From IMG/VR virus record IMGVR_UViG_3300025133_000073, positions 11,407-75,406 of that record: a stretch of DNA of 64,000 nt. One strand, written 5' to 3'. Positions within the stretch are counted from its first letter, which is position 1. Each line of letters begins with the position of its first letter. Source of the stretch: a virus. Positions 56,597 to 63,710 of the stretch are shown here, in pieces. The translations under genes and the position numbers were made by a program. The notes under the pieces are model-generated. The model made no database searches. It had not been told where the DNA came from and worked only from the letters and a program-made list of their open reading frames with translations.

Positions 56597-56893
56597 ATGG
56601 AAGATTTCAAATTGATCGTAGAAAAGACGTTAACCTTGAAGCAATTCGGCCAGGTCGAAGGCATCTCAAGCATTCACGTGCGTAAGAACCCTCAGAGCGG
56701 CAAGTACTTTGTTGCTGACGGTGCAGGTAATCCTATTGCCAAGATCAGCCACAAGCTCGTGGAGAACAAATCGCTTGACAAAGTGATGCGTTACTGCGAA
56801 GACCCTGAAGAGACTGACCCGAAGAAGAAATTCTTTTGGATGCTCAGTGTCAAGGGGGAGAGCACGCCTGACGTATGGAGTGAGACCCTTTAA
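56597..56893 (+). CDS. Hypothetical protein, first gene of the plus-strand region (98 aa)
   Basis: A-rich Bacteroidota-style leader (TAAATAAATAAA ATG); followed by GC-rich hairpins. Confidence 0.75.
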   Translation: MEDFKLIVEKTLTLKQFGQVEGISSIHVRKNPQSGKYFVADGAGNPIAKISHKLVENKSLDKVMRYCEDPEETDPKKKFFWMLSVKGESTPDVWSETL

Positions 56894-57700
56894 TCGGGGC
56901 TCTCTCGCCCTTCGGGGTTAGTAATGCGTTAATGCATAATGGACATAGTGGGAGTAGTTTACCCACTTTGTTCAGTTTGCCGAGTGATAGGCTGCGCAGT
57001 GCCTTATAACTTCATGTTCGCCAACTATGAAGAGATCATACGTGATACTCAATGGAGTGCTTACATTATTGTCTTGGACGATCAATGTGAACGCATGACC
57101 ATCATTACATCTTAGAGGGATAAACACACTCATTGACTCTGATCAATGAGCAGTGTCTCTCATCCTTGAGGTTGATAAACCTTGACAAGCTTGTGGGGCT
57201 ACTACACGTCTTGCATCTGTTCATCCACGCTCTGTGATAAAGTACCATGGTACAAAGCAGAGCTATCAGTAACAGAAGCAATATCAGACATCGGGAGATG
57301 TTGACGGTTACATTCATAAATGCTATGAGTGTATTCAGAGTTAGTGCAGACATTAAAATCAAGCCGTATTAAGATCAGGTTGACAACTGATCCTACCAAG
57401 AGTTAATGGTATGCTATTATGCATCGTCAATCAATGTGCACTTGTCGGGTGCATCTCACCGTTGATAACCAGTAGTTGTGAGAAGACTACGTAACATACA
57501 TGTTTAACTACATGTACAATGATTGGGACATACAGTGTGGTAACTGTGATGCGAGTGATGATCGTGGAATCCTCTCATGTATTAGTCAGCTGCCTCAACT
57601 GCAGTTAGAGTGCTATCAAGCACTTGATGTCGTCAAGAAAGGACGTAGATACGTCGTATTCCTAAGCAAGAAGACAAACTGCTTATTCATTAGTATTAAC
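56894..57700 (+). ncRNA. Candidate large structured ncRNA A (~800 nt); boundaries and strand approximate
   Basis: No credible ORF; more than 12 consecutive hairpins found by eye (see findings). Confidence 0.55.
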
Positions 57701-57716
57701 CTGATAAGTACATAAG

Positions 57717-57929
57717 ATGGAAGATAGTTTCACAGAAGAGCAGATGATAGAATTTGCTGATTATTGTCGTGATAATGAGTTCATAGGTGTAGTAGGTCTG
57801 TATCATTGGAAGCAGAGTAAGAGACAGGAGATCATTGACAAGGTCATACGTGGTGAGTGTACATTTGAAGATGGTAAAGGTAATAGTGACTTTGATAGTA
57901 GTGATGGACATTTTGAATTGAATCCTTAA
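57717..57929 (+). CDS. Small acidic hypothetical protein (70 aa)
   Basis: Co-oriented ORF between the two structured regions. Confidence 0.6.
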   Translation: MEDSFTEEQMIEFADYCRDNEFIGVVGLYHWKQSKRQEIIDKVIRGECTFEDGKGNSDFDSSDGHFELNP

Positions 57930-57944
57930 TCTAAACTTTATAAT

Positions 57945-58100
57945 ATGGTGACCAACAGCAAACAGAGTACTGTAAACAATAAGATCAAGCGTCTTCAGAA
58001 ACATCTTAAGCGTACTGATCATTTTGATAAGAAAGCTCACAACATTGATCGTAAGATCGATAAGTGTGCGGTCAATGCATTAGCCTTACTTACTAAGTAA
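57945..58100 (+). CDS. Small basic protein (51 aa, MVTNSKQSTVNNKIKRLQKHLKRTDHFDKK...)
   Basis: Translated by hand; AT-rich leader; below the ORF track cutoff. Confidence 0.5.
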   Translation: MVTNSKQSTVNNKIKRLQKHLKRTDHFDKKAHNIDRKIDKCAVNALALLTK

Positions 58101-58104
58101 GATG

Positions 58105-58870
58105 TAAAGATATTGCTCTTCGGAGTATTCGTACGCCTTCGGTACGTTAGGATAAACCAGTAATGGTATAAAGTGATGCTCTTGTGGTAAGGGTGTTGCG
58201 CAGTGTTTCGGCACTGTCCACTGAAAGGCATTGTACCTCGTACACTGTGGTGGGATAAGTCCTTCAAGGCATCTCAGTAGTGTATATTCCTTGACGAGCA
58301 GGGAATTGAGTGTGAAAGCACAATAGGTGGGTATGATGGACATTGGTAGTATAGATCGCCGTCTACAAGCCAATGTCAGTAGAGACTGTGCTGAAGCGTT
58401 GTGAGAAATCACGTGTGTTTAAGCATCTCATGCAATGATAGCCTTGGCAGGCATATTATAGAGTGAAGTGACGTCTAAACTCTTCAAAAGAGAGCATGGT
58501 GTCATCCTTCTCAGGACTTCACTTATAACCTCGGAACCGCATTAAAAAGAAAGGGCTTCATGCCTTGCTTATTAAGCGAAAAGACACTGAGAAGACCATA
58601 GGGTTACAATGACCTTATTCTGCTGTAATATGCAGACATCTGAAGCTCTCAAGGCTGATGATGAGTGGAACAAGTACTATCTGTAGTGAGACGACAGTCT
58701 CTTTAGCTCGTAAGGCATGCGGTAAGAACGGGAAACTATATGCTCTGTGGTAATGTGTGCGGGACACTATCCCGTGGTCATGTCGTCTATTGTGTCGTAA
58801 GATGCAGTGTGCATGGATTGTCGAAAGACGGTCAGATGATGACATGAAAGGCCAAGTGCTCAACCTTTCA
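58105..58870 (+). ncRNA. Candidate large structured ncRNA B (~770 nt); boundaries approximate
   Basis: Three TTCG-loop hairpins, GAAA and GTAA tetraloops, nested long stems; no credible ORF. Confidence 0.6.
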
Positions 58871-58903
58871 ACCTTTTTATTAACCAATTAAAACAAGATC
58901 GTT

Positions 58904-59194
58904 ATGCCTGATACATCAACAACCCAATTAGTATTACGTGTTACCATGTACGCTGATGAAATAACAGCGTCAGCAAGAGTATTAACTGCAAAAGAGCCTA
59001 CTAAGGTACCTTATAATAATGTGACCAAAGCTCTATTGAAGGATAAAGAGTATTCTGTAGTAGCTAAGGTAACACCTCTTCAAGTGACCTTGGAGTATGT
59101 AATATCTGAGGATGCTGCAAATATGCTTATTGCATTGAATAATGAAACAAGTGAGTTACAAAAAGCCTTTGCGGGCACAGCAGAAATAACATGA
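58904..59194 (+). CDS. Hypothetical protein (96 aa)
   Basis: A-rich leader; ATGA overlap with the next gene. Confidence 0.65.
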   Translation: MPDTSTTQLVLRVTMYADEITASARVLTAKEPTKVPYNNVTKALLKDKEYSVVAKVTPLQVTLEYVISEDAANMLIALNNETSELQKAFAGTAEIT

Positions 59195-59592
59195 GATATA
59201 TAATAGTATTACTCAGTGTATTATCCATAGGATGTACAAAGAATATTGTGAAGGACATTGATGTTACTGTTGAAAGACAGTCAGCATTCAGTATAGATCA
59301 CATACTACTTACCATTGATGCACAGCATAGTGCTTCATTTGGTGAGAATATTGAGCCATTTGTGCTTGATATCATTATTACTGCATTACCTGTTACTGAT
59401 GTTACCAATGAAGAGCTGTGGTTGTATACTACAAACCTTTATGAGGTCACTGAAACAGTATCAATAAGCTCATCAGAGTTTGTTGCATGTAATGGTAAGA
59501 TGGTGTATAGTAAAGGACATGCGTTTACGTCCATCATACATACAGAATATCAACGTTTTTACACATTTACTCACGAGATCCGAATAAGATGA
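59191..59592 (+). CDS. Putative lipoprotein (133 aa)
   Basis: MRYIIVLLSVLSIG-C lipobox-type signal. Confidence 0.65.
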   Translation: MRYIIVLLSVLSIGCTKNIVKDIDVTVERQSAFSIDHILLTIDAQHSASFGENIEPFVLDIIITALPVTDVTNEELWLYTTNLYEVTETVSISSSEFVACNGKMVYSKGHAFTSIIHTEYQRFYTFTHEIRIR

Positions 59593-59965: not shown

Positions 59966-60826
59966 ATGAGACAGCTTAAAATAGTTAGATCGATCACTAA
60001 TCGTGAGAACGCATCATTTGATAAGTATTTACAAGAGGTCAGTAAAGAGGAGATGATCAATGCTGAACAAGAGATAGCATTGGCACGTAGGATCAAACAA
60101 GGTGATCAAGCAGCTTTAGAGAAGCTGACCAAAGCAAACCTTCGTTTTGTGATATCAGTTGCCAAGCAGTATCAGAATCAGGGATTGAGTCTTCCTGACC
60201 TTATCAGTGAGGGAAATGTGGGGATGATGAAAGCAGGGATGCGATTTGATGAAACGAGAGGTTTCAAGTTCATTTCGTATGCTGTATGGTGGATACGTCA
60301 ATCCATATTACAGGCATTGGCAGAACATGCAAGGGTAGTGCGTCTACCGTTGAATCAGATCGGTTTGTTGAATAAGATCTATAAGATGATCTCTAAATTA
60401 GGACAGGAATTAGAACGAGAGCCTTCTATACAAGAGATCGCAGATGCAATGAATATGTCTGAGGATAAGGTAGCAGATGCATTACGTGTCTCAGGACATC
60501 AGGTATCATTGGATGCTCCTTTTATACAAGGAGAGGATAATGGTCTCTTAGATGTCATTGAGAATCATGATTCACCTCGTGCTGATGAAGCATTGATGAA
60601 TGAGTCATTGAACAAAGAGATAGAGCGTGTACTCAGTAAGCTTGATGAGCGTGAAAGGGACATATTAGTGATGTTCTTCGGTATAGGAAGATCTCATGGA
60701 TGTTCCTTGGATGAAGTGAGTGACGCTTTCAATCTTACGAAAGAGCGTGTTCGTCAGATCAAACTGAGAGCACTTGGGAAGCTGCGTTATACATCGCGCA
60801 GTAAACTGTTGAAGCAATTTCTGTAA
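59966..60826 (+). CDS. rpoD: Sigma-70 family factor, Bacteroidota primary-sigma (RpoD/SigA) type (286 aa)
   Basis: MRQLKI..SITNRE..S.DKYLQE, ANLRFVISVAKQYQNQG, FDETRGFKFISYAVWWIRQSILQALAE and LTKERVRQI. Lacks region 1.1, like the Bacteroidota housekeeping sigma. Confidence 0.95.
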   Translation: MRQLKIVRSITNRENASFDKYLQEVSKEEMINAEQEIALARRIKQGDQAALEKLTKANLRFVISVAKQYQNQGLSLPDLISEGNVGMMKAGMRFDETRGFKFISYAVWWIRQSILQALAEHARVVRLPLNQIGLLNKIYKMISKLGQELEREPSIQEIADAMNMSEDKVADALRVSGHQVSLDAPFIQGEDNGLLDVIENHDSPRADEALMNESLNKEIERVLSKLDERERDILVMFFGIGRSHGCSLDEVSDAFNLTKERVRQIKLRALGKLRYTSRSKLLKQFL

Positions 60827-62720: not shown

Positions 62721-62944
62721 TGAGTTGGGAGGTAATGTTAACCATAGTATCAGTAGTTCTGGTGCTATGGTTATTACTCCGTCTCATATTCTCAGATAAA
62801 CACAATGACGAAGGATGTCTTGATAATGAATCCCAACAATACCATGTGTTTACTCTCAAGAGTGCGATGGAAGAATCAACCGAAGCTCAGTGTAAGTTTT
62901 GTCAAAAGAAGTTTAAACATTGTAAAAACATCAGAATATTATGA
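62720..62944 (+). CDS. Small TM protein with CxxC (74 aa)
   Basis: TAATG overlap; N-terminal TM helix. Confidence 0.55.
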   Translation: MSWEVMLTIVSVVLVLWLLLRLIFSDKHNDEGCLDNESQQYHVFTLKSAMEESTEAQCKFCQKKFKHCKNIRIL

Positions 62945-63159
62945 AGGTAGGTATGACAACGAGCCCTGTAACGGGTCAGAAAGTGCTTGTAATGCAAGTG
63001 GAACAGCAGAATGAGATCGTAACACGTGACGTAGGTAAGTGTAATCCTGAAAGGGTGCAGCTCTTCGGTGAAGAAGGTAACTGTTACAATTATGTGACAC
63101 TTGAGAACTATGGTAATCGTTCTTTGATCGAATTAAAGAGGAGAAAGAGGATCAAATAA
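62941..63159 (+). CDS. Hypothetical protein (72 aa)
   Basis: ATGA overlap with the upstream gene. Confidence 0.55.
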   Translation: MKVGMTTSPVTGQKVLVMQVEQQNEIVTRDVGKCNPERVQLFGEEGNCYNYVTLENYGNRSLIELKRRKRIK

Positions 63160-63160
63160 C

Positions 63161-63168
63161 TACTTTTG
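63161..63168 (+). promoter_or_regulatory. -7 promoter box TACTTTTG, 12 nt upstream of the tmRNA
   Basis: TAnnTTTG match. Confidence 0.6.
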
Positions 63169-63180
63169 TATCTAATATAT

Positions 63181-63682
63181 GGGGGCGACTGGTTTTTGAC
63201 AGCAACACCTAAGTATAGTAACATGCACGTGAGATGATATCACTAAACACGTATGAAATACGGTATCAAAACGCTTAACTGGCGAAACAAAAGTTGTAAA
63301 TCTTTTTGACAACGTTCAGAACGTTGTGCAGGAAGTACGTTTGGCAGCGTAAAAATGCTACCCTCATCACTTGTGGTGGGGGACTTATTGTTCAATTGAG
63401 TATCTGGCATTAAGAGGAAGTCAGACTAAGCTATTCCTGCATTCACAAATAGTAAGTAACTATATAATGCTTACAACGGGAACACATACTACGGGTAACA
63501 ATCAAGGATAGGTCGTAGTATGGATGGGTGAGATAAACAAGGCTTAGTTGAACATCGCATTGATTTCCTGTTTTGAATAAAGCAGGTGGTGGAGCCGACC
63601 GTTAGGTCAGCCTAAAAGTAAGCATGTATAATTATTATATTGACAGTATTGTTGGACGAGGGTTCGATGCCCTCCGTCTCCA
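63181..63682 (+). ncRNA. ssrA: Transfer-messenger RNA (tmRNA); tag GETKVVNLFDNVQNVVQEVRLAA* at 63281-63352
   Basis: 5' GGGGGCG pairs with 3' CGTCTCC-A with a G3.U wobble; GG...TTTGAC D-loop analogue; T-arm GAGGG-TTCGATG-CCCTC; TAACT-GGC resume context; tag ends LAA-stop. CCA is not encoded. Confidence 0.93.
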
Positions 63683-63710
63683 CTTTTATAAACAATCTAA
63701 AGCTAAACAA

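What the first reader, a model, noticed from the sequence alone, without database searches (positions are those of the whole stretch)
58105..58870. Candidate large ornate non-coding RNA (B) in the phage early region
Seen: ~770 nt with no credible ORF in an otherwise gene-dense genome. It has TTCG-capped hairpins (58114-58127, 58130-58146, 58201-58216) and GNRA-capped hairpins (GTGTC-GTAA-GATGC; GATTGTC-GAAA-GACGGTC at 58816-58833). A 13-bp stem (58456-58469 with 58516-58528) closes a multibranch junction, and TCATGTCGTC/GATGACATGA (58778-58787 with 58838-58847) closes another. A 9-bp long-range pair AGAGACTGT/ACAGTCTCT (58381-58389 with 58694-58702) spans ~320 nt. Tetraloop identity and G.U pairs point to a plus-strand RNA. 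Known: phages carry large ornate RNAs such as GOLLD and ROOL. Inference: this is such an RNA; I cannot assign it to a known class, so it may be new.
Basis: partly seen in the sequence, partly recalled or inferred. Interest (0 to 1): 0.9.

Follow-up and report, generated by a model that had tools for sequence, protein, structure and literature searches.

The report
Divergent GOLLD RNA, marine crAss-like phage
The gene-free stretch encodes a real, elaborately folded ~800-base RNA, but it belongs to the already known phage RNA class GOLLD (RNAs that assemble into hollow RNA cages and whose job is unknown), so it is a new member that standard annotation misses, not a new class.

Summary
Window 58077/58128-58870 (+) has no conserved ORF. 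It folds better than shuffles (z -4.1, against -1.8 for the minus strand).

The RNA is not a new class. Its 3' half (58461-58866) matches Rfam GOLLD (RF02032) over the whole model at 62.9 bits, E 2e-15. That is below the curated cut-off of 150 bits, so a routine scan misses it. A motif in the 5' half (AGGAUAAAC, a GNRA hairpin, then UAUAAAGUG) led to about 45 full-length homologues in viral and metagenome contigs. Those checked score 54-123 bits on the same model.

With these homologues, both halves show strong covariation. In the 3' half 92% of cells are paired, against about 40% for slid controls. In the 5' half the figure is 87%. In total 138 of 208 pairs have compensatory changes, and 0 of 500 shuffles reach the observed values. 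The window's copy is about 57% identical to the main cluster, yet it keeps 181 of 208 consensus pairs.

The host is a marine crAss-like phage with no tRNA genes. Seventy relatives found by capsid or terminase protein give no GOLLD match, so the RNA is a sporadic accessory gene here.

This scan has reported divergent GOLLD RNAs in crAss-like phages three times before, on other DNA.

Verdict: a new member of a known kind; the function is still unknown.

The parts
58077..58870 (+). Whole GOLLD-family RNA, about 795 nt. The 3' end is firm. The 5' end is uncertain: the minimum is 58128 and it may lie upstream of 58077.
   Evidence: Rfam match; alignments A2 and A3 with covariation; conservation in homologues stops after CUCA(G/A)CCUUU.
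58077..58127 (+). 5' extension. It holds hairpin 58084-58098 and a lineage-specific UUCG hairpin at 58114-58127. It overlaps the last 24 nt of ORF 57945-58100.
   Evidence: Helices 2-4 of A3 covary in the main cluster but are only partly kept in the window (3/5, 4/5 and 3/5 pairs). The UUCG hairpin is an insertion relative to the homologues.
58128..58460 (+). 5' domain (the 'cap' domain of GOLLD).
   Evidence: The window keeps 95 of 109 consensus pairs. On A3, 87% of cells are paired, against 32-44% for slid controls; 72 of 109 pairs have double changes; 0 of 500 shuffles reach this.
58149..58175 (+). Signature motif: AGGAUAAAC, a GNRA hairpin (CCA-GUAA-UGG), then UAUAAAGUG.
   Evidence: The flanks are identical in 25 viral-contig loci, and the hairpin stem covaries. 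env-38 has UAGGAUAAAGUGG without the inserted hairpin.
58310..58321 (+). Hairpin GUGU-GAAA-GCAC with an invariant GAAA loop.
   Evidence: The loop is the same in all main-type 5' domains aligned, and all four stem pairs covary. It fits the description of the conserved GAAA loop L11a in PMC12286853. The mapping is by description only.
58461..58524 (+). First hairpin of the 3' domain, with the conserved UUCAAAAGA loop region (58482-58490).
   Evidence: Rfam model positions 1-65; helices 1-4 of A2 are 84-100% paired.
58525..58594 (+). Variable linker. It holds no tRNA in this copy.
   Evidence: This is the least conserved part of A1/A2. ARAGORN finds no tRNA. Eight homologues carry a tRNA at this position.
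58595..58751 (+). Long-range helix, 58595-58604 with 58742-58751. All 10 pairs are standard.
   Evidence: It is the bracketed helix of the Rfam consensus. Compensatory changes among homologues were read.
58609..58781 (+). Pseudoknot helix AUGACC/GGUCAU, 58609-58614 with 58776-58781. It crosses the long-range helix.
   Evidence: Helix 7 of A2: 98.9% paired, and 5 of 6 pairs have double changes. The Rfam consensus letters gugaC and Gucac are complementary.
58619..58636 (+). Hairpin UCUGC-UGUAAUAU-GCAGA with a near-invariant loop.
   Evidence: Helix 8 of A2: 100% paired, and 4 of 5 pairs covary.
58644..58656 (+). Hairpin AGCU-CUCAA-GGCU. In most homologues the loop is CGCAA.
   Evidence: Helix 9 of A2; Rfam alignment.
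58688..58716 (+). Two adjacent hairpins: GAGAC-GACA-GUCUC (58688-58701) and GCU-CGUAA-GGC (58706-58716).
Evidence: Helices 12 and 13 of A2 are 94-96% paired.
58757..58775 (+). Hairpin GUGCGG(G)-loop-(C)CCGU.
   Evidence: Helix 14 of A2: 5 of 6 pairs covary.
58782..58843 (+). Three-way element. The closing stem is 58782-58787 with 58838-58843. It encloses the GUAA hairpin (58788-58809) and the GAAA hairpin (58818-58831).
   Evidence: Helices 15-17 of A2 are 89-99% paired, and nearly all pairs have double changes.
58845..58870 (+). 3'-terminal hairpin with a conserved loop (..CAA..CUCAACC).
   Evidence: Helices 18-19 of A2; CUCA(G/A)CC is invariant. Similarity among homologues ends here.
57945..58100 (+). 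Upstream 51-aa basic ORF. Its 3' end overlaps the RNA's possible 5' extension. Whether it is a real gene is unknown.
   Evidence: ORF list. No PHROG or Pfam family. No tblastn match in the two closest relatives.
58904..59194 (+). Downstream 96-aa ORF of no known family. It marks the end of the gene-free stretch.

Best explanation
The stretch is the gene for a divergent member of the GOLLD family of giant phage non-coding RNAs.

Shown here: it is a plus-strand RNA of about 795 nt (58077/58128-58870) with two domains. The 5' domain runs to 58460. The 3' domain (58461-58870) begins with a hairpin carrying the UCAAAAG loop. A variable linker follows, then a long-range helix, a pseudoknot and a series of hairpins. 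All of these are shared with other GOLLD RNAs and are maintained by compensatory substitutions.

Inferred from the solved structure of the family member env-38 (Kretsch et al. 2025, PMC12286853): the RNA folds without protein and assembles with copies of itself into a closed multimeric shell. In env-38 this shell is a 14-mer. The 5' domains form the caps, the 3' domains form the rings, and the linker points inward.

Inferred from context: the RNA is transcribed with the plus-strand block of small genes that also holds a hatchet ribozyme, a sigma-70 gene and a tmRNA. It acts during infection on the host's translation machinery, for example by binding or enclosing ribosomes, tRNAs or tmRNA.

In this phage lineage it is an accessory gene gained by horizontal transfer, not a core gene.

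My odds: GOLLD family membership about 0.93; cage assembly of this copy about 0.6; a translation-related role about 0.3.
For: - Rfam RF02032 matches 58461-58866 over model positions 1-416 at 62.9 bits. E is 2.4e-15 for the 2.5-kb search and 1.7e-17 for the genome. No other family matches the stretch.
- The 5' motif scan gave 25 viral loci. Of 24 of their records searched, 17 hit RF02032 over the full model at 54-123 bits. nhmmer confirmed about 22 more in metagenome and genome contigs.
- Covariation on A2: 92.0% of cells paired against 36-43% for slid controls, 66 of 99 pairs with double changes, 0 of 500 shuffles.
- Covariation on A3: 87.1% against 32-44%, 72 of 109 pairs, 0 of 500 shuffles.
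- The window row keeps 86 of 99 and 95 of 109 consensus pairs, at about 57% identity to the main cluster.
- The Rfam long-range helix is kept 10 of 10, and the pseudoknot 6 of 6.
- The env-38 construct shares the hairpin followed by UAGGAUAAAGUGG at its 5' end.
- Homologues carry tRNAs in the linker and sit in tRNA islands, as published for GOLLD.
- The setting is a phage: terminase, portal and capsid PHROGs, and a capsid protein about 42% identical to crAss-like phages.
- Accessory status: 0 of 20 relatives found by capsid protein and 0 of 50 found by terminase have a GOLLD match. The syntenic region of the two closest relatives holds other RNAs instead.
Against: - The score is far below Rfam's gathering cut-off (62.9 against 150 bits). 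None of the homologues found here passes it either.
- The record has no tRNA gene, although GOLLD is usually described beside tRNAs.
- Some loop nucleotides differ in the window: CUCAA instead of CGCAA, and GACA instead of GGCA or UGCA. In env-38 the loops of this part of the RNA carry contacts between subunits, but I could not map which loops correspond, so assembly of this copy is not assured.
- The 5'-terminal helices that covary in the main cluster are only partly kept here.
- No promoter or terminator was found for the RNA itself.
Confidence: 0.9

Rival explanations
1. It is a separate, new class of large ornate phage RNA that only resembles GOLLD.
For: The score is below the Rfam gathering cut-off. 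BLASTN finds nothing in 50,697 GenBank phage records. The 5' terminus is restructured relative to the main cluster.
Against: The match covers the whole model with E about 1e-15. Homologues form a continuous series up to 123 bits. Every major helix of the Rfam consensus, the pseudoknot included, is present and covaries. The 5' motif is shared with env-38.
Confidence: 0.04
2. It is a decaying, non-functional remnant of a GOLLD gene picked up by horizontal transfer.
For: It is absent from all 70 relatives checked. Several conserved loop letters are changed. No promoter of its own was seen.
Against: It keeps 181 of 208 consensus pairs at only about 57% identity, including 41 G.U pairs, which points to continued selection on the fold. 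It is full length, with intact ends and all invariant blocks. The identical sequence is present in three marine samples.
Confidence: 0.05
3. The stretch encodes small proteins (minus-strand ORFs of 108 and 90 aa, or tiled plus-strand micro-ORFs), and the hairpins are incidental.
For: Open frames 58086-58412(-) and 58615-58887(-) exist. There is a sub-threshold DUF5530 hit, 19 bits against a cut-off of 25.
Against: No open frame is conserved in strand or frame among 20 homologues. The substitutions are pair-compensating, not codon-patterned. The minus strand folds no better than expected. The neighbouring genes are on the plus strand.
Confidence: 0.01

Closest known systems
GOLLD RNA, Rfam RF02032 (Weinberg et al. 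2009). The solved member is env-38: marine metagenome, 833 nt, D7 14-mer nanocage (Kretsch et al. 2025, PMC12286853).
   Same: - About 800 nt long and phage-borne.
- Two-domain layout: a conserved 3' domain that starts with the UCAAAAG-loop hairpin, then a variable linker, then a long-range helix, a pseudoknot and a terminal hairpin.
- The 5' domain carries the AGGAUAAA..GUG motif and a conserved GAAA loop.
- Marine origin.
   Different: - It scores 62.9 bits, under the 150-bit cut-off.
- An extra GNRA hairpin is inserted in the 5' motif.
- It has an extra UUCG hairpin and a restructured 5' terminus.
- There is no tRNA in or near it.
- Some conserved loop letters are changed.
- The host is a crAss-like phage.
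- Assembly was not tested.
The environmental GOLLD cluster found here (for example L130, L113, L115, L119; 83-123 bits) in uncultured phages, the near-complete ones about 90-125 kb.
   Same: The fold is the same in both domains: the window keeps 87% of their consensus pairs. The signature motif, length and 3' end are also the same.
   Different: - About 57% identity.
- Those copies have a 5' extension with a covarying pseudoknot (UGUUGUU/AACAACA and GUAYAC/GURUGC) that the window lacks.
- Several have a pistol ribozyme at or near the 3' end.
- The phages are unrelated: there is no capsid match apart from one weak hit, in G091.
ROOL RNA (the Rfam ROOL family): the other cage-forming phage RNA.
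   Same: It is a large ornate phage RNA, often near tRNAs, and forms an RNA-only cage (an octamer).
   Different: There is no Rfam match to ROOL even at E up to 10. Its sequence and secondary structure are different.

Membership tests
GOLLD (RF02032) | Statistically significant covariance-model match to the conserved 3' domain over its full length | tested here: met
   58461-58866 matches model positions 1-416 at 62.9 bits, with E 2.4e-15 and 1.7e-17.
GOLLD (RF02032) | Score at or above Rfam's curated gathering cut-off (150 bits) | tested here: not met
   62.9 bits. The 17 clear environmental homologues also fail, at 54-123 bits. The cut-off is therefore conservative and not a limit of the family.
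GOLLD (RF02032) | The 3'-domain helices of the consensus are present and maintained by compensatory change | tested here: met
   The window keeps 86 of 99 pairs. On A2, 92% of cells are paired, 66 of 99 pairs have double changes, and 0 of 500 shuffles reach this. The long-range helix is kept 10 of 10.
GOLLD (RF02032) | First 3'-domain hairpin with a UCAAAAG-type loop, followed by a variable linker that may hold a tRNA | tested here: met
   The hairpin is at 58461-58524 and the linker at 58525-58594, with no tRNA. Eight homologues have a tRNA at this position.
GOLLD (RF02032) | A separate, less conserved 5' domain of about 350-420 nt, giving a total length of about 800 nt | tested here: met
   58077/58128-58460. 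Covariation on A3. The motif is shared with env-38. The 5' domains of L117, L118, L126, L134 and L136 diverge, as published for the family.
GOLLD (RF02032) | Carried by phages or prophages | tested here: met
   An IMG/VR virus record with terminase, portal and capsid genes. The capsid protein is about 42% identical to crAss-like phages.
GOLLD (RF02032) | Located near tRNA genes or islands (frequent, not obligatory) | tested here: not met
   No tRNA in the window or in the 75-kb record. A tmRNA lies 4.3 kb downstream.
GOLLD (RF02032) | Self-assembly into a homo-14-mer RNA cage through conserved contacts between chains | not testable with these tools
   Only the published residue list is on hand. 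I could not align env-38 to the window with the tools, so the contact loops were compared only by description.
GOLLD (RF02032) | Expressed as a discrete RNA during infection | not testable with these tools
   This needs RNA from infected cells or metatranscriptomes, which are not on hand.
ROOL | Covariance-model match to the ROOL family | tested here: not met
   No ROOL match at E up to 10 in 56800-59300.

The most novel reading that the evidence does not exclude
GOLLD may belong with the ribosome-rescue and translation apparatus and not with tRNAs as such.

This phage has no tRNA at all, yet it carries GOLLD and an oversized tmRNA 4.3 kb apart on one strand. An unrelated phage fragment (L118) has the same GOLLD-then-tmRNA spacing. 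A third GOLLD lineage (L147, L229, L310, L371) also has a tmRNA within a few kb.

If the link is real, the cage could act on stalled ribosomes or on tmRNA. That would give this class, whose function is unknown, a testable partner.
Probability: 0.1. Interest if true: 0.65.

Novelty: new member of a known kind. Interest (0 to 1): 0.3.

Why it matters
GOLLD is one of the few natural RNAs known to build a closed cage from RNA alone, and its biological role is unknown.

- This copy widens the family to a marine crAss-like phage that has no tRNAs. That argues against an obligatory link between GOLLD and tRNA genes.
- Rfam's 150-bit cut-off hides most environmental members: none of the roughly 18 clear members scored here passes it.
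- The work supplies a 5'-domain alignment with covariation, which the Rfam model does not cover.
- The nearby hatchet ribozyme, sigma factor and tmRNA make this a compact locus for asking when and with what GOLLD is expressed.

None of this changes what GOLLD is understood to be.

Tried and rejected
- BLASTN of the RNA, and of a high-scoring homologue, against 50,697 GenBank phage records gave no match.
- An exact 23-mer from the 3' domain gave no match in viral contigs.
- Relatives were first sought through the neighbouring sigma-70 gene. These turned out to be unrelated large phages, and only one of 50 had a GOLLD-like RNA.
- The pattern scan of genome contigs is mostly chance. About 150 chance matches are expected for 18 fixed bases in 596 Gb, so only hits confirmed by nhmmer were used.
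- No closer relative of the window's copy was found in any locus. Its lineage-specific parts could therefore not be tested by covariation.
- Sequencing runs: no RNA holder is listed, and only DNA contigs of marine metagenomes hold the stretch. Two of these are probably the source. Laying them showed identical sequence and no variants.
- The sigma-70 promoter and terminator scan found no more than chance. There is no TAnnTTTG box directly upstream.
Bridge B7 (residues 546/547 with 617/618) lies wholly in the 3' region, so it is not the same interaction. Per-sequence complementarity between the 5' junction and the 3' domain falls in shifting registers.
- A 7-bp complement, 58001-58007 with 58099-58105, could extend the RNA upstream. 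A match of that size is expected by chance in a region of this length, so I do not claim it.
- The Weinberg 2009 paper is not in the library.

Full report
**What is there.** Window 58101-58880 has no ORF that survives comparison. The plus strand folds to -251.8 kcal/mol, z -4.1 against dinucleotide shuffles. The minus strand reaches only z -1.8. A routine Rfam scan of the whole window at gathering thresholds finds only a tmRNA (63181-63685) and a hatchet ribozyme (57162-57364). This is why the stretch looked unassigned.

**Identity.** A permissive Infernal scan of 56800-59300 matches GOLLD (RF02032) at 58461-58866. The match covers model positions 1-416 at 62.9 bits, E 2.4e-15. The same hit has E 1.7e-17 in the 75-kb virus record. 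The score is below the curated cut-off of 150 bits.

**Homologues.** BLASTN against GenBank phages found nothing. One unrelated 194-kb phage (G020) had a sub-threshold GOLLD hit. Comparing it with the window showed two shared 10-mers, with identical spacing, in the 5' half. The derived pattern, AGGATAAAC, then 6-14 nt, then TATAAAGTG, hit 25 viral contigs. In 23 of them the gap is a GNRA hairpin whose stem covaries. Most of those long enough have the UCAAAAG loop about 390 nt downstream and, in many, CUCA(G/A)CC about 750 nt downstream. Of 24 of their records searched, 17 hit RF02032 over the full model at 54-123 bits, and none passes 150. The same pattern in metagenome and genome contigs, filtered with nhmmer profiles, added about 22 more. 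The window's copy is about 57% identical to the main cluster, and nothing closer was found.

**Structure and covariation.**
- 3' domain (A2, 16 sequences): 92.0% of cells form standard pairs, against 36-43% when partners are slid. 66 of 99 pairs have changes on both sides, and 0 of 500 shuffles reach the observed values.
- 5' domain (A3, 18 sequences): 87.1% against 32-44%, 72 of 109 pairs, 0 of 500.
- The window row keeps 86 of 99 and 95 of 109 consensus pairs. It has 41 G.U pairs against 6 A.C, which fixes the plus strand.
- The long-range helix of the Rfam consensus (58595-58604 with 58742-58751) is kept 10 of 10 and covaries among homologues.
- Helix 58609-58614 with 58776-58781 crosses it, is 98.9% paired, and matches complementary consensus letters in the Rfam model. 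It is therefore a conserved pseudoknot.
- No open frame is conserved among homologues.

**Comparison with the solved GOLLD.** Kretsch et al. (PMC12286853) describe env-38 as follows:
- It is 833 nt long.
- The 5' region is residues 1-420 and the 3' region 421-833.
- The linker 497-538 is disordered and lies inside a D7 14-mer cage.
- tRNAs are sometimes found in the linker.
- It has a conserved GAAA loop, L11a.
- Ribosomes bound it in pull-down assays.
- Its function is unknown.

The env-38 construct begins with a hairpin followed by UAGGAUAAAGUGG. This equals the window's hairpin 58130-58146 plus the signature motif, without the inserted GNRA hairpin. The window has an invariant GAAA hairpin at 58310-58321 whose stem covaries. 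Eight homologues carry a tRNA exactly in the linker. I could not align env-38 with the tools, so the bridge residues were not mapped. Two loops (CUCAA instead of CGCAA, and GACA instead of GGCA or UGCA) differ from most homologues.

**Boundaries.** The 3' end is firm: similarity among homologues stops after the terminal hairpin at 58845-58870. The 5' end is not. Homology to env-38 starts at about 58128. Helices that close the 5' domain in the main cluster reach positions equal to 58077-58098 but are only partly kept here. The UUCG hairpin 58114-58127 is an insertion specific to this lineage. The RNA may therefore overlap the last 24 nt or more of the 51-aa ORF 57945-58100, whose reality is untested. 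No promoter or terminator of its own was detected. Co-transcription with the plus-strand block is the default inference.

58381-58389 and 58694-58702 are perfectly complementary. However, the 3' partner is the loop and 3' strand of the conserved hairpin 58688-58701. The 5' partner lies in a junction that is poorly conserved, and complementarity in homologues falls in shifting registers. It is not the published B7 contact. I treat it as unsupported.

**Context.**
- The record is a marine, roughly 75%-complete crAss-like phage.
- It has no tRNA.
- Twenty relatives found by capsid protein (about 80% identity) and fifty found by terminase (33-65%), thirteen of them at least 90% complete, have no GOLLD match.
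- In the two closest near-complete relatives, the syntenic plus-strand region holds other RNAs instead: a P1 twister ribozyme, DUF805b RNA, a tRNA and a group I intron.
- The phages that carry the homologous RNAs are unrelated to this one.

So the gene is a sporadic, horizontally acquired accessory in this lineage. Earlier agents of this scan reported divergent GOLLD RNAs in other crAss-like phages three times. I reached the same identification independently on this DNA. One of those reports describes a fixed position in a whole phage group, which is not what I see among this phage's relatives.

**Mechanism.** Shown: a structured RNA of the GOLLD family under selection for its fold. Inferred from env-38: self-assembly into a multimeric cage with the linker inside. 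Speculative: a role at the translation apparatus. This rests on the published ribosome pull-down, the tRNAs in and around other copies, and the tmRNA found near GOLLD here and in two other lineages.

**Verdict.** Novelty: a new member of a known kind. Interest is modest.

Noticed in passing
window 57162-57364 (+): A hatchet self-cleaving ribozyme (RF02678, 55.4 bits, cut-off 51) with a large insertion, about 700-900 nt upstream of the GOLLD RNA on the same strand.
   Followed up: partly
window 63181-63685 (+): An oversized tmRNA: 505 nt against a 374-position model, 70.5 bits. Rfam finds it but ARAGORN misses it. A TAnnTTTG box lies at 63161. It is 4.3 kb downstream of GOLLD. The two closest relatives lack it, although they keep the ORF just upstream (62941-63159).
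   Followed up: partly
L118 9958-10424; L310 1281-1631; L147 2847-3202; L229 5352-5708; L371 2022-2377: tmRNA genes lie within a few kb of GOLLD in two further, unrelated GOLLD lineages. In L118 the tmRNA is also oversized (467 nt), is missed by ARAGORN, and lies 4.3 kb downstream of GOLLD, as in the window. No background rate was computed.
   Followed up: partly
L114 3451-3512 (-); L113 4605-4666 (+); L130 1979-2040 (-): Pistol ribozymes sit right at the 3' end of GOLLD (L114) or about 250 nt after it (L113, L130). This suggests ribozyme processing of GOLLD transcripts in some phages.
   Followed up: no
L126 9226-9298; L128 2652-2725; L134 10519-10594; L147 6867-6940; L229 7285-7358; L236 1859-1932; L371 398-470; L310 3103-3175: tRNAs are embedded in the GOLLD linker: Ile-GAU in five loci, Asn in two, and a CUA-anticodon suppressor-like tRNA in L126.
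   Followed up: partly
L113-L137 main cluster, about 70 nt upstream of the position equal to window 58077: The main GOLLD cluster has a 5' extension with two covarying, mutually crossing helices (UGUUGUU/AACAACA and GUAYAC/GURUGC). This is a pseudoknot that lies upstream of where the env-38 construct begins. The window's copy lacks it.
   Followed up: partly
L115, L119, L120, L121, L124, L129, L133, L135, just after the GOLLD 3' end: A conserved element of about 40 nt, beginning AAUGCACCA, follows GOLLD in many main-cluster loci. Its identity is unknown.
   Followed up: no
L111 8026-8085, 11874-11908; L112 12914-12947, 19655-19958: The early regions of the two closest relatives hold a P1 twister ribozyme (56.7 bits, below its cut-off of 67.2), DUF805b RNAs and a group I intron. 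The early region of this phage group looks like a variable store of small RNAs.
   Followed up: no
window 59966-60826 (+): A full-length sigma-70 family gene (phrog_351, E 2e-72) lies 1.1 kb downstream of GOLLD. Its best relatives are in large, unrelated phages (up to 59% identity).
   Followed up: partly
window 58646-58728, other contigs of runs X1-X3: The same marine samples hold at least two other contigs that match only the conserved GOLLD core and then diverge. One is 4587 nt long and matches 37 nt with 6 differences. Other GOLLD variants therefore co-occur in these waters.
   Followed up: no
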